In this document: piece after piece, positions 6,203 to 47,292 of the stretch
Numbering within the stretch: the first letter of the stretch is position 1
Layout of the letters: each line of letters starts with the position of its first letter
Assembly: GCA_964520615.1 (NCBI GenBank)
Contig: CAZFNL010000137.1
Span: forward strand, 7,140 to 71,139
Reading direction: 5' to 3'
From: an uncultured Gammaproteobacteria bacterium
GTDB taxonomy: Bacteria; Patescibacteriota; Microgenomatia; 2-02-FULL-39-11
DNA: 64,000 nucleotides
The notes under the pieces: generated by a model
The model's input: the letters and a program-made list of their open reading frames with translations, nothing else
Databases searched by the model: none
Told to the model about the DNA's origin: nothing
Made by a program: the position numbers and the translations under genes

Positions 6203-7315
6203 CTATCTAGAGGTTATATGACGATTAATATTGAGGACTATTCCCACTGCAGTAAGAGAAACGATAAGATTGGAACCTCCGAAAGAAACAAATGGCAAAG
6301 GTACACCCGTAAGAGGCAAAAGCGCAACGATTGCTCCCAGATTTATGGCTGCTTGGAATCCAAAAAATGCCAATATCCCGGATGCCAGAAGAAAGCTGTG
6401 TTTATCTGGAGCATTTCTCACCACTTGATAAATTTTGTATAAGAAAAAAAGATAAATTCCGATAAATATTATCGACCCGATAAAACCAAATTCTTCTCCA
6501 ATTATTGCAAATATTGAGTCAGTGGTGGCTTCGGGTAAAAACTGATACTTTTGCGTTGAAGATCCCAATCCTACACCAAACCATCCGCCCGATCCGAGTG
6601 AAATTAATATTTGTCGTATATGATATGACGCACCCAATGGATCAACGCTTGGATTTAAGAATGTAGTCAACCTACGAAATCTATATGGAGATGATATTGC
6701 CAGTATTACAACTGACAGAACTGTCGCTGGAACCAAAAGGATAAAATGCAATATTGAAGCTCCTGATAAAAAATACATTGCCACAGCAATACACGTAACA
6801 ATTATGGCCGTGCCCAAATCCGGTTGGACAATAATAAGACCTACAACCAAAAAAAGAAGGAGAAGAAAAGCCGTAAATCTACCCTTTTCTTTACTGGAGA
6901 ACCAAGCGGATAGATAAAAGATAAGAGTCAACTTGGCCAGTTCGGCAGGTTGGAAATTAAAAATGCTTCCTATTCCTATCCATCTATGAGCACCCAAAGC
7001 TCTTACACCTATTCCAGGAATAAATACAGCAATAAGAGTGGCGATTGTAACAAGCATGAAAATAACAGACCAGTTATAATATTTCTTATAAGGAATCATA
7101 AAAGCCACAAACATACCAACCATTCCTATTATAAAATTTATAAACTGTTCACGGACGAAATGATATTGATTACCAAAATCTTTGAAAGCGGTTACATTTG
7201 AGGACTCAAACATCATTAGAAGTCCAAATAAGGCTATAAATATAGCCAAACCAGCTATCCACCAGTCTAGTTGTCTTTTCTGATGGAGAAGTTTTACTCT
7301 TTCTTTTCTTACCAT
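6203..7315 (-). CDS. ftsW: SEDS-family peptidoglycan polymerase FtsW.
   Basis: 10 TM segments. SEDS motifs FQPAELAK, QPDLGTA, PEATTDSIFA and LPLTGVPLPFVSFGGS. Confidence 0.85.
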   Translation of the reverse strand: MVRKERVKLLHQKRQLDWWIAGLAIFIALFGLLMMFESSNVTAFKDFGNQYHFVREQFINFIIGMVGMFVAFMIPYKKYYNWSVIFMLVTIATLIAVFIPGIGVRALGAHRWIGIGSIFNFQPAELAKLTLIFYLSAWFSSKEKGRFTAFLLLLFLVVGLIIVQPDLGTAIIVTCIAVAMYFLSGASILHFILLVPATVLSVVILAISSPYRFRRLTTFLNPSVDPLGASYHIRQILISLGSGGWFGVGLGSSTQKYQFLPEATTDSIFAIIGEEFGFIGSIIFIGIYLFFLYKIYQVVRNAPDKHSFLLASGILAFFGFQAAINLGAIVALLPLTGVPLPFVSFGGSNLIVSLTAVGIVLNINRHITSR

Positions 7316-7437
7316 TTTTTAAAGCTTTGACAATATTACCGTCAAAAGAATTTATATAATACGCCTTGCAAAAAACTGCTTAGACCATCAAATAGTATTT
7401 ATCGAATGCGGATAAATCCATCAGAGCGATAAATATC

Positions 7438-7537
7438 TCAGCTTCGCTTGGTGAATTCCATTACGGCAGATTGAAACTCCCTCGACTTTACGGCTCACCT
7501 CGCTGACAAGCGGGTCAAGGAATTCCGCGAAGGCTGG
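7438..7537 (-). ncRNA. Candidate structured GC-rich RNA element, copy 1 of 2, in the 320-bp mraY-ftsW gap. Strand is uncertain.
   Basis: Nested inverted repeats: cagcttcgc/gcgaaggctg, gaattcc/ggaattc, cgct-gaca-agcg. The 29-nt core 7492-7520 is 26/29 identical to 26597-26625. Local GC is well above the window average. Confidence 0.35.
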
Positions 7538-7636
7538 TTAAAACACACCACAAATTTAGTCTGCTTCGGACTAAAGCAAGTTACTCCCTTACGAATAAAC
7601 TATTTTCCCTACCGACTTTCATATGGATTCCCTGAA

Positions 7637-8677
7637 TTAAACCACAAAAGTAATCCATAAGCCTACAATTGCAAAAACTAAACCTACGAGCCAAGCACGA
7701 AATACTATTGTCGATTCATTCCAACCCCTTGACTGCAACCATAAATGAAAAGGAGCTGCAGATATAATTTTTTTGCCCCGATATTTCTTACTGAGAAGTT
7801 GCGCAAATGAAGAGGCAACTTCAGCAACAAAAATCCCACCTATTATCACAAGAGAAAAAACTTTCCCCAATAGAAGACCAATTACGGCAAAAGTGGCGCC
7901 GAAGGATAGAGCCCCAACGTCTCCTAAAAATATGCGAGCTGGAAATATATTAAAGTACAAAAAAGCAACCACCCCCCCCAGCCATATACCTATAAACATC
8001 GAAAGAGTAGTATCCAAAATCGCGTGAGAAATTACCCAGAAAGAAACAAGCGCGATTAGAAGCGCTCCTGCGGCCAATCCATCCAAACCATCAGTAATAT
8101 TATATGCATTTGCAAATGCAGTAATAACAAATGCAGCAAAAGGGATATAAAATATACCCAAGTTAATTACTCCAACCACCGGTACATTAATTATTCCTAT
8201 TTTAAGTTCCGAAAAAAGCCAGTATGATACAACTAATGACAATATGATTTCCAATATCAACTTGTAATGCAACTTTAGCCCGAAAAATGTTTCTCCGCCA
8301 TGAGGTATAATTACTTTTCTTATATCATCAAACAATCCCACAAGACCAAAAGATATAAAAGTAAAAATCAATATTTTTAATTCACTCCCGATATTTGGAT
8401 AAATTGAGGTTATTGGCACCCAGAAATAATATAAAAGGGGAAAACTGAGAAAAAAAAGGAGGGAAGTTATCGTAATTATAAGCAAACCTCCCCCAACAGG
8501 AGTACCGGCTTTGAATTTATTTAGTTTATCAAAAATTGGAGTCGGGAGATTAAAAGCGTCTTTAGTCTTTTGATTTTGCCTTTGTACCTTAAATTTATAT
8601 AACAGATTTATAAAAGGTATCAACGTAATCGAGTGAATTATAAAGGATAAAATTAATAGACTTAAAATTAATCCCAT
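7637..8677 (-). CDS. mraY: Phospho-N-acetylmuramoyl-pentapeptide transferase MraY.
   Basis: NAYNITDGLDGLAAG motif, ten TM segments, dcw context. Confidence 0.9.
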   Translation of the reverse strand: MGLILSLLILSFIIHSITLIPFINLLYKFKVQRQNQKTKDAFNLPTPIFDKLNKFKAGTPVGGGLLIITITSLLFFLSFPLLYYFWVPITSIYPNIGSELKILIFTFISFGLVGLFDDIRKVIIPHGGETFFGLKLHYKLILEIILSLVVSYWLFSELKIGIINVPVVGVINLGIFYIPFAAFVITAFANAYNITDGLDGLAAGALLIALVSFWVISHAILDTTLSMFIGIWLGGVVAFLYFNIFPARIFLGDVGALSFGATFAVIGLLLGKVFSLVIIGGIFVAEVASSFAQLLSKKYRGKKIISAAPFHLWLQSRGWNESTIVFRAWLVGLVFAIVGLWITFVV

Positions 8678-26066: not shown

Positions 26067-26456
26067 TCATAATTTATTTCTGTAATCTTCCCAATTTCTT
26101 TTAGACCAAATCTCAAAATGGTCTCCTGCTCCAATAATCACCAAACTTTCAGATATGTCTGCATATCCCATCATTTCCTGCGGCAGGACGAACCTGCCCT
26201 GTGCATCCAAATCTATACTCACTGCACCGGAATACATTTTTCTCCTTAAATCTCTTCCCTCTTTGTCTGAAAATAAAGGCCTTGCCAATTCTGTTCTTGT
26301 CACTTCCTCCCACGATTTTTCCGGAAAGCCGAAAATACAATGCTCAAATCCGGTAGTCAACACAATTCTGTCTCCACCCAAAGAGTTTCTTATCTTTTTC
26401 GGCAATGCAACCCTGCCTTTATCCATCAAATTCGGTTCGTATGTGCCTAAAAACAT
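26067..26456 (-). CDS. mraZ: Transcriptional regulator MraZ.
   Basis: Two MraZ/SpoVT-AbrB half domains (GRVALPKKIRNSL and GRFVLPQEMM). First gene of the dcw cluster. Confidence 0.9.
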   Translation of the reverse strand: MFLGTYEPNLMDKGRVALPKKIRNSLGGDRIVLTTGFEHCIFGFPEKSWEEVTRTELARPLFSDKEGRDLRRKMYSGAVSIDLDAQGRFVLPQEMMGYADISESLVIIGAGDHFEIWSKRNWEDYRNKL

Positions 26457-26460
26457 ATTT

Positions 26461-26490
26461 CTACATTTATCACCACTTTACACCACTTTA
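26461..26490 (-). promoter_or_regulatory. Direct repeats of TAAAGTGGTG (two perfect copies, one degenerate third) immediately upstream of mraZ. Candidate MraZ operator.
   Basis: The minus strand reads TAAAGTGGTG TAAAGTGGTG ATAAATGTAG with 10-nt periodicity, ending 5 nt before the mraZ ATG. MraZ operators are direct repeats (TGGGN in E. coli, AAAGTG[T/G] in Mollicutes). Confidence 0.5.
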
Positions 26491-26494
26491 TTCC

Positions 26495-26523
26495 ATAATG
26501 CTACTGTAACCACCTCTTGTCAA
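26495..26523 (-). promoter_or_regulatory. Candidate sigma-70 promoter of the dcw cluster (TTGACA-17 nt-CATTAT), placed just upstream of the MraZ-box repeats.
   Basis: On the minus strand, TTGACA is at 26523..26518 and CATTAT at 26500..26495. The -35 sits inside an imperfect palindrome CCTCTTGTCAAGAGG. Confidence 0.4.
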
Positions 26524-26570
26524 GAGGCAACAGCAGCACTTATCCCTTCAATACAAGTGTCATTCTCGAG

Positions 26571-26632
26571 AAGGCGAGAATCCTGATTCCCAATCAGGCT
26601 CGCCTCGCTGGTGAAGCGGGTCGGGCCCGACA
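26571..26632 (-). ncRNA. Candidate structured GC-rich RNA element, copy 2 of 2, upstream of the mraZ promoter. Strand is uncertain.
   Basis: ggcgag-(cctgatt ccc aatcagg)-ctcgcc nested hairpin, cgct-ggtga-agcg, gtcgggcccgac hairpin. The core 26597-26625 matches 7492-7520, with a compensatory change between the ggtga/tcacc (copy 1) and ggcgag/ctcgcc (copy 2) helices. Confidence 0.35.
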
Positions 26633-36909: not shown

Positions 36910-38033
36910 CAGACTTTGCCATTAAAAACATTTTCATAAAGTTCTAGTGTCTGGAAAGCAGTCTTTTTCCAGCTGTACTTTGAAAGTCTTCTTGAAGCTT
37001 TAGTTACAATTCCTCTATAAAGTTTAGAATTCATATCTAATACCCCTAAAATCCTGTCTGCAATTGCCTCGAAATTATAGGGATCAAAAAAAGGCAAATC
37101 TTTATCCCAGATTTCACGAAACACAGGTATATCTGAAATAACAGGTATCTTTCCGCAGGAAAGCGCCTCAAGCGTAGGCAAACCAAATCCTTCCATCAGT
37201 GACGGAAACACCAAACATGAGGAAAAGGTGTAAAGATTGATAAGTTGCTTATCGTTAGCCTCGCCAAAAAAAACCACGTCATTGCCTATCCCATGCTTCT
37301 GAGCGATATCTTTTAACCTTGGATAGAAGTATTTATCATCTCCTGCCAATACTAATTTATAATCTGGCTTATTTCTTTTTATTTTTTTAAAGGCAAGAAG
37401 TGTGCGCTCCAAATTCTTATGTGGATAAGCGTTACCAACATAAAGCACATATTGAAAAGTATAATATTTTTCCGGATGGTAATTTCTCAAAGTATTGGCA
37501 AAACTTCTATCCAAGGCATCGTAAGTGACGTGTATACGTTTTGGAGGAACCCTATAATGATCGATGATTTCTTGTTTCGTGGTCTTGGAAATCGCGACAA
37601 TCGTCTCTGCTCTTTTTATTCCCCTTGCTATGGAAAATCTATATCCTAAACGCTTTGCTTTATATAAAACCGTAGGCAATGTGCTGGCTCTCCCGGTATC
37701 GAAATGATCAACAATTAAATCATGTATAGTCAATATGTATTTTTTTGGGTATAAAACAGGAACATTAAAATAAGTAAAATGAGCGGCGTCAAGTCTGTCT
37801 GCCAAGAGTATTCTGGGCATGACATATTGTTCTTTTACTGTATGCCACGGGATATCAGCTAATCTTTTGTGCCAACGTATGTTAGGAGGAGAAAACTCGT
37901 TAAATTCTTTTCTTAGCAAATATACAAAATAGTCATTCTTAATATCAATTTGAGATAACTCCTCAATAAGATTTCGTATATATCTTCCTACTCCGGTTTG
38001 ATGATAAAGCCGTGCATCAATTCCTATGCGCAT
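36909..38033 (-). CDS. Glycosyltransferase family 4 (GT-B).
   Basis: FPSLMEGFGLPTLEALSCGKIPVIS motif. Start overlaps the previous stop by 1 nt. Confidence 0.8.
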   Translation of the reverse strand: MRIGIDARLYHQTGVGRYIRNLIEELSQIDIKNDYFVYLLRKEFNEFSPPNIRWHKRLADIPWHTVKEQYVMPRILLADRLDAAHFTYFNVPVLYPKKYILTIHDLIVDHFDTGRASTLPTVLYKAKRLGYRFSIARGIKRAETIVAISKTTKQEIIDHYRVPPKRIHVTYDALDRSFANTLRNYHPEKYYTFQYVLYVGNAYPHKNLERTLLAFKKIKRNKPDYKLVLAGDDKYFYPRLKDIAQKHGIGNDVVFFGEANDKQLINLYTFSSCLVFPSLMEGFGLPTLEALSCGKIPVISDIPVFREIWDKDLPFFDPYNFEAIADRILGVLDMNSKLYRGIVTKASRRLSKYSWKKTAFQTLELYENVFNGKV

Positions 38034-44988: not shown

Positions 44989-46152
44989 CTATTTTATATC
45001 ACTAACTGTCTCTTGCAAAACTTTTAGAGTTTGAAGTGCGCATTTTTCCCAACTGAAAGCCTTTATTCTGTCATGTCCTTTTACTATCATTCTACTTCGT
45101 AACTTTTTATCATAAATGGCGCTTTTTATTCCCCTGGCAATATCCTTACTATCTTTCGGATCAACAAGTAAACCACTTTCCCCTATTATCTCAGGCATAC
45201 TTGAGTTGTTGCTTACAACTACCGGACAACCGCAAGCCATAGCCTCGACCACCGGTAAACCAAATCCTTCATACAATGACGGGAGGACAAAACATGAGGC
45301 CATATGGTAAAAAAGTGGCAACTCTAATGGTAAAACATAATCGGTTAAAATGATCTTTTGCACGACACGGCTTGTTCTAACAGCCTCTAAAATTTCCTCA
45401 TAAAGCCATCCTTTTTTACCAATAATAACTAATTGCAAATTAGTTTTATCTCCTGACATAATAATCCTTTCAAAAGCCTCGATCAATTTTCTTATATTTT
45501 TCCTCGGCTGTAGCGTACCAACAAACAGAATAAAATTGTCGCTTAAATGGTATTTTTTTTTCAACCTTTCCCCAAACCTCTCACTCCTTTTTTCATTTGA
45601 ATTAAAGACCTCACTATCGTATCCAGGATATGTCACTACTACCTTGTCGTCTTGGACTTTATAATATTCAACTATCGATTTTTGGGAATAGTAGCTGATT
45701 GTAAAAACCTTAGCTGCCTTTTTTACGGAATACTCTGTCCAACGGGTCAACTGATATAAATCCTTCTTTGTAAACATTTCCGGAAAATTAATAAAAGACA
45801 AATCCATAATTGACATTGCGCGCGGACAAGGTGCAAACCTGGGTGAATAGTGTGATGGACTGAAAAAAATATTTGGTCGTGGCCTTTGAAAATTCAGCTT
45901 TAACGGTAAAGCAAATTGAGTCCATGCTTTTTCAGGCCCAAACATTTCATAACTCCACCATTGATTTTCTTTCGGCAAATCATCCAATGGTTGATTTTTT
46001 AAGTATATTCTAAAACTTATGTCTGATAGATTCAGCTCTTTATACTTATTTTTCCTCAAAAGATATATGTGTCTTAAAAGTTGATAGGCGTATTGTCCTA
46101 TTCCCACCCTAAAATCCGTATTGGCTTCGTTAGCATCAATTCCTATTAGCAT
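44989..46152 (-). CDS. Glycosyltransferase family 4 (GT-B).
   Basis: LPSLYEGFGLPVVEAMACGCPVVVSN motif. Confidence 0.8.
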   Translation of the reverse strand: MLIGIDANEANTDFRVGIGQYAYQLLRHIYLLRKNKYKELNLSDISFRIYLKNQPLDDLPKENQWWSYEMFGPEKAWTQFALPLKLNFQRPRPNIFFSPSHYSPRFAPCPRAMSIMDLSFINFPEMFTKKDLYQLTRWTEYSVKKAAKVFTISYYSQKSIVEYYKVQDDKVVVTYPGYDSEVFNSNEKRSERFGERLKKKYHLSDNFILFVGTLQPRKNIRKLIEAFERIIMSGDKTNLQLVIIGKKGWLYEEILEAVRTSRVVQKIILTDYVLPLELPLFYHMASCFVLPSLYEGFGLPVVEAMACGCPVVVSNNSSMPEIIGESGLLVDPKDSKDIARGIKSAIYDKKLRSRMIVKGHDRIKAFSWEKCALQTLKVLQETVSDIK

Positions 46153-46155
46153 ATT

Positions 46156-47292
46156 TTATGAAATTAAACTTTCATATATTTTCAATATTTTACTTGCGGC
46201 ATCTTCCCATTTGAATTTTTCGGCCTGGGAAAAACCTTTCTTAATTATTTCCTTTCTAAGATTTTGGTCAATAAATAATTGCACCATTTTGACAGATATA
46301 TCTTCTTCATCATAAGGATCTATTTGTAACGCGCAATCACTTGCAATTTCTGCCAAACTTCCCATGTTTGATGTAACCACAGGACAGCCGCATGCCATGG
46401 CTTCTAATATAGGCAAACCAAACCCTTCGTAAAGTGAAGGAAAAACAAAAAAAACTGCCCCAGAGTAAATCGCCGGCAGGTCTTTTTTCTCAACCATGCC
46501 CAGAGGATACACAAACCTGACGTTTTTCAGCTTTTGTCCCCAACCTGTTCTACCCACGAGCACAAGATTTATTTCCTTATTCTGTGATGACACAAGTGGA
46601 TGACGTAAAAACCTGTCAAAAGCCAAAATCAGTCGCTGCAAATTTTTACGCGGCTCGCGTGTCCCGACAAATAAAATATATCTTTCTGGCAGATTATATT
46701 TTTGTCTCACACGTATAAATTCCTCCTCATCCTGAGGTATAAATTGTCTATCGATTCCCGGATAAACCACTATTACTTTATCAGGTTCCACATTCAGCGT
46801 CTCCAATATATCTCTTTTTGTCGAGACAGAATCAGCGATTATCGCATCACATTCCCTTTTTACCCAATACAGTCGTCTTTTTTGCGTAGCAACAATATCC
46901 GGATGGGAAATCTGCGGGTACTTATAAACTACCAAGTCATGAATAGTGGTAACCTTATTTACCCCTTTTATCGGAGGTTGGATCCAATCCGACGAATGAA
47001 ATATATCAGCATTGCCTATAAATCTGCCCAAATCAAATACATGATATCTGTTCCAGACAATATTCCCCAATGTTTGCGGCAGTCTGATAATCTTTGATTC
47101 CACATTGCTGTATTTTGTCTTTAATTCTGACGTGAAATTGGTCAATGCATCAATCTGCCGAAGTGATATTCCAAAAAGAAGATACTGATTATTTCTGTCC
47201 GTCTGTAAAAGCCTGCGCACCAAATTTTCTGTATATGATGCTACACCGCTTCCGGTATAAGCTATTTGTGATATGTCAATTGCTATTTTCAT
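46156..47292 (-). CDS. Glycosyltransferase family 4 (GT-B).
   Basis: FPSLYEGFGLPILEAMACGCPVVTSNMGSLAEI motif. Confidence 0.8.
   Translation of the reverse strand: MKIAIDISQIAYTGSGVASYTENLVRRLLQTDRNNQYLLFGISLRQIDALTNFTSELKTKYSNVESKIIRLPQTLGNIVWNRYHVFDLGRFIGNADIFHSSDWIQPPIKGVNKVTTIHDLVVYKYPQISHPDIVATQKRRLYWVKRECDAIIADSVSTKRDILETLNVEPDKVIVVYPGIDRQFIPQDEEEFIRVRQKYNLPERYILFVGTREPRKNLQRLILAFDRFLRHPLVSSQNKEINLVLVGRTGWGQKLKNVRFVYPLGMVEKKDLPAIYSGAVFFVFPSLYEGFGLPILEAMACGCPVVTSNMGSLAEIASDCALQIDPYDEEDISVKMVQLFIDQNLRKEIIKKGFSQAEKFKWEDAASKILKIYESLIS

What the first reader, a model, noticed from the sequence alone, without database searches (positions are those of the whole stretch)
7438..7537. GC-rich structured element in the unusual 320-bp mraY-ftsW gap (copy 1 of a repeated motif)
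The window is otherwise tightly packed, but mraY and ftsW, which normally flank murD, are separated by 320 non-coding bp. In the centre is a ~100-nt segment of high GC with nested helices: cagcttcgc/gcgaaggctg enclosing gaattcc/ggaattc enclosing a cgct-GACA-agcg hairpin. A further hairpin lies at 7557-7573. Its 29-nt core ggctcacctcgctgacaagcgggtcaagg is 26/29 identical to a segment upstream of the mraZ promoter (26597-26625). It does not match RNase P, SRP, tmRNA or 6S core motifs I can recall.
Basis: seen in the sequence. Interest (0 to 1): 0.65.

Follow-up and report, generated by a model that had tools for sequence, protein, structure and literature searches.

The report
Decayed copies of a dispersed hairpin repeat
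The GC-rich "structured element" between mraY and ftsW is not a conserved RNA gene: it is a lineage-specific, degenerate copy of a short GC-rich hairpin DNA repeat that is scattered through many uncultured low-GC bacteria and that sits, in its second copy here, next to a Neisseria-type NTS/SRM hairpin.

Summary
The sequence features are real: a 321-nt mraY-ftsW gap, a roughly 100-nt GC-rich segment and the nested helices. The fold is no more stable than shuffled sequence, and no Rfam family matches. The claimed 26/29 identity is wrong: it is 18/29 ungapped, and 24 of 30 alignment columns with one gap.

The sister species (coding DNA 93-95% identical) lacks the core at both loci. Other Gottesmanbacteria have mraY and ftsW almost abutting.

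A metagenome scan with the shared core found at least 65 distinct low-GC contexts. They carry one consensus, GCTCGCCTCGCTGCGAAGCGG|GTC. About half lie in frame inside ORFs, and 36 of 43 scorable contexts are antisense to the genes, as are both window copies.

Filled and empty Hsp20 alleles differ by exactly 21 nt.

The copy upstream of mraZ (26558-26632) matches a roughly 85-nt composite repeat over its full length (E = 1.5e-9). The first hairpin of that composite is the Neisseria NTS/dRS3 type, an Ssn-related motif.

Verdict: these are relics of REP/NIME/SRM-like DNA hairpin repeats, not a non-coding RNA. The 21-nt unit itself appears undescribed and may deserve its own study.

The parts
7316..7636 (.). 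mraY-ftsW intergenic gap (321 nt). It is lineage specific: 219 nt in the sister species and mostly 6-70 nt in other Gottesmanbacteria.
7493..7516 (+). Copy 1 of the hairpin repeat unit, GCTCACCTCGCTGACAAGCGG|GTC (21-nt unit 7493-7513 plus GTC). It matches the consensus at 21/24 positions and has lost the GCGAAGC apex. It is antisense to the genes.
7439..7447 (+). This side is present, in diverged form, in the sister species.
7527..7536 (+). 3' arm of P1 (gcgaaggctg). It lies in the 66-71-nt segment that the sister species lacks.
7453..7459 (+). 5' arm of helix P2 (gaattcc).
7519..7525 (+). 3' arm of P2 (ggaattc). It is absent from the sister species.
7555..7575 (-). AT-rich hairpin just downstream of mraY, followed on the minus strand by a U-rich run. 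The sister species keeps it through changes that stay paired only on the minus strand (G-U). It is too weak to be called a terminator by the scan.
26558..26632 (+). Copy 2: a full-length, diverged member of the 'class A' composite repeat (an SRM-like hairpin, a spacer, and a second hairpin carrying the unit). It is absent from the sister species.
   Evidence: (E=1.5e-9, 38 bits; the profile was built without window sequence)
26558..26585 (+). TGTCATTCTCGAGAAGGCGAGAATCCTG: an NTS/dRS3-like hairpin that is one substitution away from the published SRM search pattern.
   Evidence: PMC11893778
26598..26622 (+). Repeat unit within copy 2, GCTCGCCTCGCTGGTGAAGCGG|GTC. It matches the 5-nt-loop variant of the consensus at 24/25 positions.
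26495..26523 (-). Likely mraZ promoter (TTGACA-17-CATTAT). Two AAAGTGGTG boxes lie at 26471-26489. This 79-nt stretch is 96% identical in the sister species, whereas the repeat just upstream is not conserved.
6203..7315 (-). ftsW (FTSW_RODA_SPOVE family).
7637..8677 (-). mraY (Glycos_transf_4 family).

Best explanation
Both GC-rich segments are lineage-specific, partly decayed copies of small GC-rich hairpin DNA repeats. They are of the REP / NIME / Ssn-related-motif kind and are not an RNA gene.

The shared core is a copy of a 21-22-nt unit. On the window's plus strand the consensus reads GCTCGCCTCGCTG(G)CGAAGCGG, usually followed by GTC. On the gene strand it reads CCCGCTTCGCAGCGAGGCGAG. The unit is dispersed in many low-GC uncultured bacteria.

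The copy upstream of mraZ lies inside a roughly 75-nt composite whose first hairpin is an NTS/dRS3-type Ssn-related motif.

Shown:
- family membership of both copies;
- absence of both copies from the orthologous sites of the sister species;
- fast evolution of the gap;
- no Rfam match and no excess folding stability;
- in other genomes, the unit comes and goes as an exact 21-nt block.

Inferred:
- Such units act as single-stranded DNA hairpins. The consensus apex GCGAAGC, and the NTS apex GCGAAAGC, are 'mini-hairpin DNA' motifs.
- They are recognised in trans. For the SRM part the candidate is a GIY-YIG Ssn single-strand nuclease encoded elsewhere in the genome.
- In this window they are passively transcribed within the dcw operon. 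At most they act incidentally, as REP elements do, by adding hairpins to the mRNA between mraY and ftsW.
For: 1. Family membership.
- 75 of the loci have GC below 0.55. They give 65 distinct contexts, nearly all with G at the R position and the loop GCGA.
- Conservation collapses within 1-3 nt of the 24-mer.

2. The window copies.
- They differ from the consensus at 3/24 and 1/25 positions. None of 100 shuffles of the window gave such a match.
- A profile built from five metagenomic composites, without any window sequence, matches window 26558-26632 end to end (E = 1.5e-9).

3. Link to the Neisseria NTS.
- The first hairpin of the composite is 100% identical over 26 nt to repeats in the Neisseria gonorrhoeae chromosome.
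- It fits the published NTS and SRM patterns, and the window version is one substitution off (PMC11893778).

4. Not conserved.
- The sister species lacks 66-71 nt, including the core, in the mraY-ftsW gap. The same gap allele is fixed in 5 contigs.
- It also lacks the composite upstream of mraZ, where a non-alignable 52-nt segment stands instead, although the flanks are 85-96% identical.
- No closer relatives exist in the protein database.
- Alignable gap DNA is 80-81% identical, against 93-95% for coding DNA.

5. Mobility of the unit elsewhere.
- Hsp20 alleles L186 (empty) and L117 (filled) are 98% identical over 1.1 kb and differ by a single 21-nt indel.
- A second Hsp20 lineage carries the unit at the same site.
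- 103 of the 105 homologues that could be scored are empty.

6. Orientation.
- The unit is antisense to the gene in 25 of 31 ORF contexts and in 11 of 12 contexts between co-directional genes. Both window copies are antisense as well.

7. No RNA signal.
- No Rfam match above curated thresholds; the only relaxed-threshold match near the finding lies beside the element and is far below its family threshold.
- Folding z-scores lie between -1.6 and +0.06.
- The sister species are predicted to fold the shared part of the gap differently.
Against: - Copy 1 matches the family only over the core. The covariance model gives 16.5 bits (E = 0.11) and nhmmer gives E = 0.035. Its flanking helices P1 and P2 are therefore not explained by family membership.
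- One arm of P1/P2 lies in DNA shared with the sister species and the other arm in window-specific DNA. This fits a deletion in the sister as well as an insertion here, so the direction of the change is unresolved.
- No GIY-YIG, HUH transposase or other transposase gene was found in the window or recurrently next to the unit. These tests were partial: Pfam covered only 40 of about 55 ORFs, and the phmmer queries were recalled from memory.
- Only 64 kb of this genome could be searched, so the genomic copy number is unknown.
- REP-like elements are sometimes co-opted, so a local regulatory role is not excluded.
Confidence: 0.75

Rival explanations
1. A cis-acting RNA structure in the dcw operon mRNA. 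On the minus strand the nested helices would act as an intercistronic stabiliser, processing site or attenuator that uncouples ftsW from mraY expression. This could be an exapted repeat, as with E. coli REP elements.
For: The element lies inside a co-directional operon and would be transcribed. The minus-strand fold is slightly better than the plus-strand fold (z = -1.6 against -0.8). A small hairpin followed by a U-rich run lies just after mraY and keeps its pairing in the sister species only on the minus strand. The family as a whole is strongly biased in orientation relative to genes.
Against: Half of the structure is missing in a sister species whose FtsW is 96% identical. That species nevertheless keeps the same operon. 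Most relatives have no gap at all. There is no significant excess stability. No promoter or terminator was detected in the gap. The gap evolves at a near-neutral rate.
Confidence: 0.15
2. A novel free-standing small RNA or ribozyme gene, present in two copies.
For: It is GC-rich in an AT-rich genome and has nested helices. No Rfam family explains it.
Against: The two copies share only about 25 nt. The rest of each element is unrelated. There is no promoter or terminator. It is not conserved in the sister species. The shared core also occurs in frame inside protein-coding genes of unrelated organisms.
Confidence: 0.04
3. A palindromic operator for a regulator of cell-division genes, bound as double-stranded DNA at both dcw-cluster intergenic regions.
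For: Both copies lie in the two largest intergenic regions of the dcw cluster, and one is 35 nt upstream of the mraZ -35 box.
Against: The spacing between the half-sites differs between the copies (4 nt against 5 nt). The same sequence occurs in ribosomal-protein operons, in Hsp20 genes and in other unrelated contexts in other phyla. It is absent from the sister species, which has the same genes.
Confidence: 0.03

Closest known systems
Ssn-related motifs (SRM) / Neisseria Transformation Sequence (NTS, containing dRS3); Chenal et al. 2025, Nat Commun, PMC11893778
   Same: The composite repeat to which copy 2 belongs starts with GTCATTCCCGCGAAAGCGGGAATCTA. This is an exact NTS. Its reverse strand reads as a second SRM whose loop carries the 21-nt unit. 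The window version, TGTCAT-TCTCG-AGAAGG-CGAGA-ATC, keeps the GTCAT leader, a hairpin and the ATC tail. Like SRMs, these are short hairpin DNA repeats found across phyla.
   Different: The window hairpin misses the published degenerate pattern by one substitution, and the window contains no strict SRM. No ssnA-like GIY-YIG gene was found in the window (weak test). The 21-nt unit itself has no GTCWY leader and does not fit the SRM pattern. Only 2% of NTS copies lie in genes according to the paper, whereas about half of the unit's contexts are inside ORFs.
REP / BIME elements of enterobacteria and NIMEs of Neisseria (mosaic intergenic hairpin repeats; REPs are associated with RAYT transposases)
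   Same: The units are short imperfect palindromes. They occur singly, as inverted doublets and in mosaics with other hairpin modules (classes A, B and C). They are non-autonomous, and their presence differs between close relatives.
   Different: There is no GTAG-type REP head. No RAYT/Y1 transposase was detected in any locus (weak test). In-frame occurrence inside genes is frequent, whereas REPs are mostly extragenic.
Rickettsia palindromic elements; GC clusters and hairpin-forming elements of fungal, sponge and placozoan mitochondria (comparison from general knowledge)
   Same: These are GC-rich palindromic elements that invade AT-rich genomes and can sit in frame inside protein-coding genes without destroying them.
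   Different: Those elements are 30-150 nt long and confined to one lineage. This unit is 21-22 nt long and is found with the same consensus in organisms of different phyla.
Mini-hairpin DNA, GCGNAGC / GCGNNAGC (PMC13037366)
   Same: The apex of the consensus unit (GCGAAGC) and the apex of the NTS (GCGAAAGC) are exactly these unusually stable DNA mini-hairpins. This argues for a role as single-stranded DNA.
   Different: Both window copies have lost the motif (their apexes read GACAAGC and GGTGAAGC). This is consistent with decay.

Membership tests
Any Rfam RNA family | Covariance-model score at or above the family's gathering threshold | tested here: not met
   There were 0 matches in the whole window at gathering thresholds. 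At E<=10 the only match in 7250-7700 was RAGATH-27, at 19.7 bits against a threshold of 76.1, and it lies outside the element. Related metagenomic loci also gave no match.
21-nt GC-rich hairpin unit (family defined here) | Match to the consensus GCTCGCCTCGCTG(G)CGAAGCGG followed by GTC | tested here: met
   Copy 1 matches at 21/24 positions and copy 2 at 24/25. None of 100 shuffles of the window gave such a match.
21-nt GC-rich hairpin unit (family defined here) | Orientation antisense to the surrounding genes | tested here: met
   Across the family, 36 of 43 scorable contexts are antisense. Both window copies lie on the plus strand among minus-strand genes.
21-nt GC-rich hairpin unit (family defined here) | Presence/absence difference between close relatives | tested here: met
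   The unit is absent at both orthologous sites of the sister species. Here the indels are larger than 21 nt, unlike the clean 21-nt Hsp20 case.
Class A composite repeat (inverted SRM doublet carrying the unit) | Full-length match to a profile built from the metagenomic copies | tested here: met
   This holds for copy 2: nhmmer covers profile positions 2-83 with E = 1.5e-9.
Class A composite repeat (inverted SRM doublet carrying the unit) | Full-length match, tested on copy 1 (the finding itself) | tested here: not met
   Only the core aligns: nhmmer positions 48-78, E = 0.035; covariance model positions 50-72, 16.5 bits, E = 0.11.
Ssn-related motif (SRM/NTS) | Match to HGTCWYN(0-2)YYVSBRHN(0-5)WNVSBRGN(0-2)RNCYNB | tested here: not met
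   The window has 0 strict matches (shuffles give a mean of 0.12). Window 26558-26585 matches with one substitution. Copy 1 does not match within the 2 substitutions tested.
Ssn-related motif (SRM/NTS) | An ssnA-type single-domain GIY-YIG gene in the genome, typically flanked by the motifs | tested here: inconclusive
   phmmer with GIY-YIG consensus sequences recalled from memory found no hit in the window's six-frame ORFs. Pfam on 40 ORFs also found none. Only 64 kb of the genome is visible.
Ssn-related motif (SRM/NTS) | Tens to hundreds of copies per genome | not testable with these tools
   The rest of the source genome could not be fetched.
REP/BIME (RAYT-associated) | A conserved GTAG-type head 5' of the palindrome and a RAYT (Y1 HUH) gene | tested here: not met
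   There is no GTAG head in the consensus or its flanks. No Y1 transposase hit was found in the window or in any locus, using queries recalled from memory.
MITE | Terminal inverted repeats plus a target-site duplication | tested here: not met
   The filled/empty Hsp20 pair shows an exact 21-nt insertion. The only junction feature is a 2-nt ambiguity (CC), with no clear duplication.
Intrinsic terminator | A GC-rich stem-loop followed by a U tract | tested here: not met
   No terminator-like site was found inside 7316-7636 on either strand.
Conserved cis-regulatory RNA / riboswitch | Conservation at the orthologous position with covariation | tested here: not met
   The element is absent or truncated in the sister species, and other relatives have no gap. 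The sister species give different predicted folds.

The most novel reading that the evidence does not exclude
The 21-22-nt unit (gene-strand consensus CCCGCTTCGCAGCGAGGCGAG) may be a previously undescribed, very small, non-autonomous mobile DNA hairpin.

It appears with one consensus in unrelated low-GC bacteria. These include a CPR Gottesmanbacterium, T9SS-bearing Bacteroidota and a lineage with Chloroflexota-like Hsp20 genes.

It enters or leaves sites as an exact 21-nt block without a clear target duplication. It recurs at the same Hsp20 codon in two lineages, and a different GC-rich hairpin occupies that site in a third. It tolerates all reading frames and is strongly strand-biased relative to genes.

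This pattern points to insertion into single-stranded DNA by an enzyme acting in trans. The candidates would be an Ssn-like GIY-YIG nuclease combined with repair, an HUH enzyme, or something unknown.
Probability: 0.35. Interest if true: 0.7.

Novelty: new variant of a known kind. Interest (0 to 1): 0.42.

Why it matters
For this window, the result removes a false candidate non-coding RNA. It also explains why two dcw-cluster intergenic regions are unusually long and GC-rich: they carry repeat insertions, not regulators.

More broadly, it places NTS/SRM-like hairpin repeats, so far characterised mainly in Neisseria and other cultured bacteria, in a Candidate Phyla Radiation genome.

It also exposes a 21-nt GC-rich hairpin unit that is shared across phyla and is polymorphic as an exact in-frame block inside genes. 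If that unit is mobile, it would be among the smallest mobile DNA elements known. It would also be a convenient marker of single-strand DNA transactions, such as transformation or replication-fork targeting, in uncultured bacteria.

Tried and rejected
- **Rfam.** I scanned the whole window at gathering thresholds, the gap at E<=10, and 15 related loci. Nothing relevant turned up.
- **tRNA/tmRNA scan.** No genes were found.
- **Folding stability against shuffles.** It was not significant on either strand.
- **Promoter/terminator scan of the gap.** No sites were found.
- **BLAST of the gap against 50 related dcw loci.** Only the sister species aligns.
- **Closer relatives.** None exist between 96% and 72% FtsW identity. 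Exact-protein look-ups returned only the same population or the sister species.
- **Copy 1 as a full-length class A composite.** I suspected this by eye (a possible CCTCGA/TCAAGG outer stem and GAATTCC/GGAATTC ends). Neither the profile nor the covariance model supports it, so I do not claim it.
- **The unit generally sitting at the apex of longer host hairpins.** Support is weak: 25% of contexts have a flanking stem of at least 6 bp, against 10% of control positions, and repeated composites partly drive that excess.
- **A protein gene recurrently linked to the unit.** All-against-all clustering of neighbouring ORFs found only orthologous synteny. GIY-YIG genes occur in 2 of 120 loci, about background. 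No Y1 transposases were found.
- **Viral, phage and plasmid collections.** There is no exact copy of the 24-mer. The only matches were chance near-matches in high-GC actinobacterial and Caballeronia plasmids.
- **Literature search by sequence and by topic.** No description of the unit was found.
- **High-GC hits of the metagenome scan.** These are chance coding matches of the L-A-S-L...R-V type and were set aside.

Full report
**Setting.** The window comes from a Candidate Phyla Radiation bacterium close to Candidatus Gottesmanbacteria. The FtsW and MraZ homologues that carry an organism name are nearly all named Gottesmanbacteria, Microgenomates or Patescibacteria. The genome is about 37% GC, and almost all genes lie on the minus strand.

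The region is an expanded dcw cluster. It runs from mraZ (26067-26456) through rsmH, ftsI, several Mur ligases, murB, murA, a FemAB-family gene and a diacylglycerol kinase. It then continues with mraY (7637-8677), a 321-nt gap, ftsW (6203-7315), murG, ftsQ, ftsA and ftsZ.

**Checking the observation.** The gap and its GC-rich centre are real. Three parts of the description do not hold.
- The 29-mers at 7492-7520 and 26597-26625 are 18/29 identical without gaps, not 26/29. The shared part is GGCTC-R-CCTCGCTG ... AGCGGGTC, around loops of different length.
- The fold is not more stable than dinucleotide shuffles. The z-score is -0.8 (plus) and -1.6 (minus) for 102 nt, and -0.46 and +0.06 for 181 nt.
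- In this lineage mraY and ftsW normally abut, mostly 6-70 nt apart, with murD elsewhere. What is unusual is the added non-coding DNA.

No Rfam family matches on either strand above threshold. The only relaxed-threshold match lies beside the element and is far below its family's cut-off. There is no tRNA or tmRNA. The scan found no promoter or terminator in the gap.

**Comparison with relatives.** The only close relative in the databases is a sister species with 96% FtsW, 98% MraY and 97% MraZ identity and 93-95% identical coding DNA.
- Its mraY-ftsW gap is 219 nt. Five contigs from different samples carry this same shorter gap.
- Upstream of mraZ its intergenic region is 217 nt, against 304 nt here. 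The segment holding the second copy is replaced by an unrelated 52 nt. The neighbouring promoter with its two AAAGTGGTG boxes is 96% identical.
- The alignable parts of the mraY-ftsW gap are only 80-81% identical, so they evolve about three times faster than the genes.
- The two species are predicted to fold the shared part of the gap differently.
- No relatives of intermediate distance exist. The next FtsW is 72% identical and has no gap.

There is therefore no conservation and no material for a covariation test.

**What the core is.** I scanned metagenome contigs with the part shared by the two copies, GCTCRCCTCGCTGN{3,4}AGCGGGTC.
- Hits on contigs with GC above 0.6 are chance matches in coding sequence.
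- The 75 loci with GC below 0.55 give 65 distinct contexts. Nearly all have G at the free position and GCGA as the loop, which gives the consensus GCTCGCCTCGCTGCGAAGCGGGTC. A minority has the loop GGCGA.
- Conservation disappears within 1-3 nt on either side.

The stems were fixed by my search pattern, so their exactness is partly due to how the hits were found. The uniform loop and the number of unrelated contexts are not.

The window copies differ from this consensus at 3 of 24 positions (copy 1) and 1 of 25 positions (copy 2). None of 100 shuffles of the window gave such a match. No further copies occur in the window or in 590 kb of related dcw loci.

**Behaviour of the unit elsewhere.**
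- About half of the contexts lie inside long ORFs, in all three frames. No frame of either strand contains a stop codon.
- The unit is antisense to the gene in 25 of 31 ORF contexts and in 11 of 12 contexts between co-directional genes. Both window copies share this orientation.
- In an Hsp20 family, 103 of the 105 homologues that could be scored lack the insert.
- At the DNA level, an empty allele (L186) and a filled allele (L117) are 98% identical over 1.1 kb. They differ by one indel of exactly 21 nt, CCGCTTCGCAGCGAGGCGAGC, at GAC^CGT.
- A second Hsp20 lineage carries the same unit at the same codon, and its protein-level relatives are empty. A third sequence has a different 24-nt GC-rich hairpin at that site.
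- Filled and empty comparisons within repeat arrays give the same 21-22-nt unit.

The hosts are not one clade. One set of contigs encodes proteins with T9SS sorting domains, which points to Bacteroidota. The Hsp20 group has homologues named Ktedonobacteraceae. The window itself is from the Candidate Phyla Radiation.

The exact 24-mer is absent from IMG/VR, and neither the phage nor the plasmid collection holds a copy. I found no paper that contains the sequence.

**The second copy and the link to known repeats.** Seven metagenomic instances share a composite of about 85 nt:

GTCAT-TCCCGC-GAAA-GCGGGA-ATC, a spacer, TCCCCGA-TCAG-[unit]-TCGGGGA-TGAC.

- A profile built from five of them, without any window sequence, matches window 26558-26632 over its whole length (38 bits, E = 1.5e-9).
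- The first hairpin of the composite is 100% identical over 26 nt to repeats in the Neisseria gonorrhoeae chromosome.
- It corresponds to the Neisseria Transformation Sequence, CGTCATTCCCGCGMAVGCGGGAATCYRG, which contains the dRS3 repeat. It also corresponds to the wider class of Ssn-related motifs. According to PMC11893778, single-domain GIY-YIG nucleases (Ssn) bind and cut these motifs as single-stranded DNA in many phyla.
- The metagenomic copies fit the published degenerate pattern. The window version, TGTCATTCTCGAGAAGGCGAGAATCCTG, misses it by one substitution. The window holds no strict match.
- Read on the other strand, the second half of the composite is a second such motif whose loop carries the 21-nt unit. 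The composite is thus an inverted doublet.
- In Bacteroidota contigs the unit sits in mosaics with other hairpin modules. One of those modules flanks a GIY-YIG gene inserted at a tRNA gene.
- The apex of the unit (GCGAAGC) and the apex of the NTS (GCGAAAGC) are the unusually stable DNA mini-hairpin motifs GCGNAGC and GCGNNAGC (PMC13037366). This fits a role as single-stranded DNA. Both window copies have lost these apex motifs.

**Limits for copy 1, the finding itself.** Only its core is supported as a family member: nhmmer gives E = 0.035 and the covariance model gives 16.5 bits, E = 0.11. By eye the flanks can be read as a decayed composite, but the models do not support this and I do not claim it.

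The arms of P1 and P2 straddle the boundary of the segment missing in the sister species. Similar direct repeats (GTTTTAACCAGCC and GTTTCAATCTGCC) also flank the indel. A deletion in the sister species is therefore as plausible as an insertion here. Either way, the structure is not maintained.

**Interpretation.** The best-supported reading is that both GC-rich patches are lineage-specific, partly decayed copies of REP/NIME/SRM-like DNA hairpin repeats (confidence 0.75). Any function at the DNA level would depend on an enzyme encoded elsewhere. None was found in the window, but the tests were weak.

In the mRNA the repeats are transcribed passively. A REP-like effect on transcript stability between mraY and ftsW remains possible (0.15), but conservation does not support it.

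A free-standing small RNA (0.04) and a double-stranded operator (0.03) are unlikely.

**Novelty.** As a repeat relic the finding is fairly ordinary. What is less ordinary is the 21-nt unit: one consensus shared across phyla, exact presence/absence as a 21-nt block, recurrence at one codon, frequent in-frame residence in genes and strong strand bias. I could not find it described. I rate it a new variant of a known kind, and I give 0.35 probability that it is a genuinely new type of minimal mobile hairpin.

Noticed in passing
L186 against L117, L146, L120, L060, L148, L187 and L188 (Hsp20 genes in metagenome contigs): There is an exact 21-nt in-frame presence/absence polymorphism of the hairpin unit at GAC^CGT; it adds the residues PLRSEAS. 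Two Hsp20 lineages carry it at the same codon, and a third sequence has a different 24-nt GC-rich hairpin there. Of the 105 homologues that could be scored, 103 are empty.
   Followed up: yes
L055-L174 (low-GC loci): The unit is antisense to genes in 36 of 43 scorable contexts. This suggests strand-specific insertion or strand-specific selection.
   Followed up: partly
L062 3388-3470; L138 4477-4559 and 5049-5131; L055 8402-8484; L064 3323-3407: Exact Neisseria-type NTS hairpins occur in environmental contigs that do not look like Neisseria (neighbouring genes encode LytR_cpsA_psr and DUF2298 proteins). Each forms an inverted doublet with a second SRM whose loop holds the 21-nt unit.
   Followed up: partly
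L073 8900-9740: A 95-aa GIY-YIG gene lies directly after a tRNA gene, and the tRNA 3' end is duplicated downstream, which suggests an integrated element. AT-rich hairpin repeats (CCGAAAAATAG...TTTTTCGAGC) flank it, and the same repeats abut the 21-nt unit in other contigs.
   Followed up: partly
L001 11640-11720; L002, L010 and L037 at about 11.4-11.5 kb (downstream of ftsZ; absent from the window at 1505-1650): Just after the ftsZ stop codon, four Gottesmanbacteria keep a near-identical segment of about 50 nt. It encodes, in another frame, a second copy of the FtsZ C-terminal peptide ([13 protein letters not shown] followed by a stop). It could be a small CTP-mimic ORF, a recoding site or a duplication relic. 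It has no Rfam match.
   Followed up: partly
window 26471-26523: The mraZ promoter (TTGACA-17-CATTAT) is followed by two AAAGTGGTG boxes spaced 10 nt apart, probably MraZ binding sites. The stretch is 96% identical in the sister species.
   Followed up: partly
L001-L050: In about 30 of roughly 43 patescibacterial loci, including nearly all Gottesmanbacteria, mraY and ftsW are adjacent without murD. In about a dozen others a gap of about 1.4 kb or more, large enough for murD, lies between them.
   Followed up: yes
L051 and L052 (Logan contigs of the same population): Both assemblies break inside the mraY-ftsW gap, 73 and 22 nt upstream of ftsW. This would fit repeat-induced or strain-heterogeneity-induced assembly breaks at this locus.
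   Followed up: no
L177 15835-16404 against L176: Within the sister species, a NYN-domain gene is present between ftsZ and ileS in one contig and absent in another. In the window, ftsZ is instead followed by glycosyltransferase and HAD genes, so synteny breaks there.
   Followed up: no
window 37153-37222, 45230-45299, 46388-46457: A 70-nt direct-repeat family (67-73% identity) lies inside or near glycosyltransferase genes (one copy in an annotated gene, two in ORFs not annotated here). This is most likely paralogous coding sequence.
   Followed up: no
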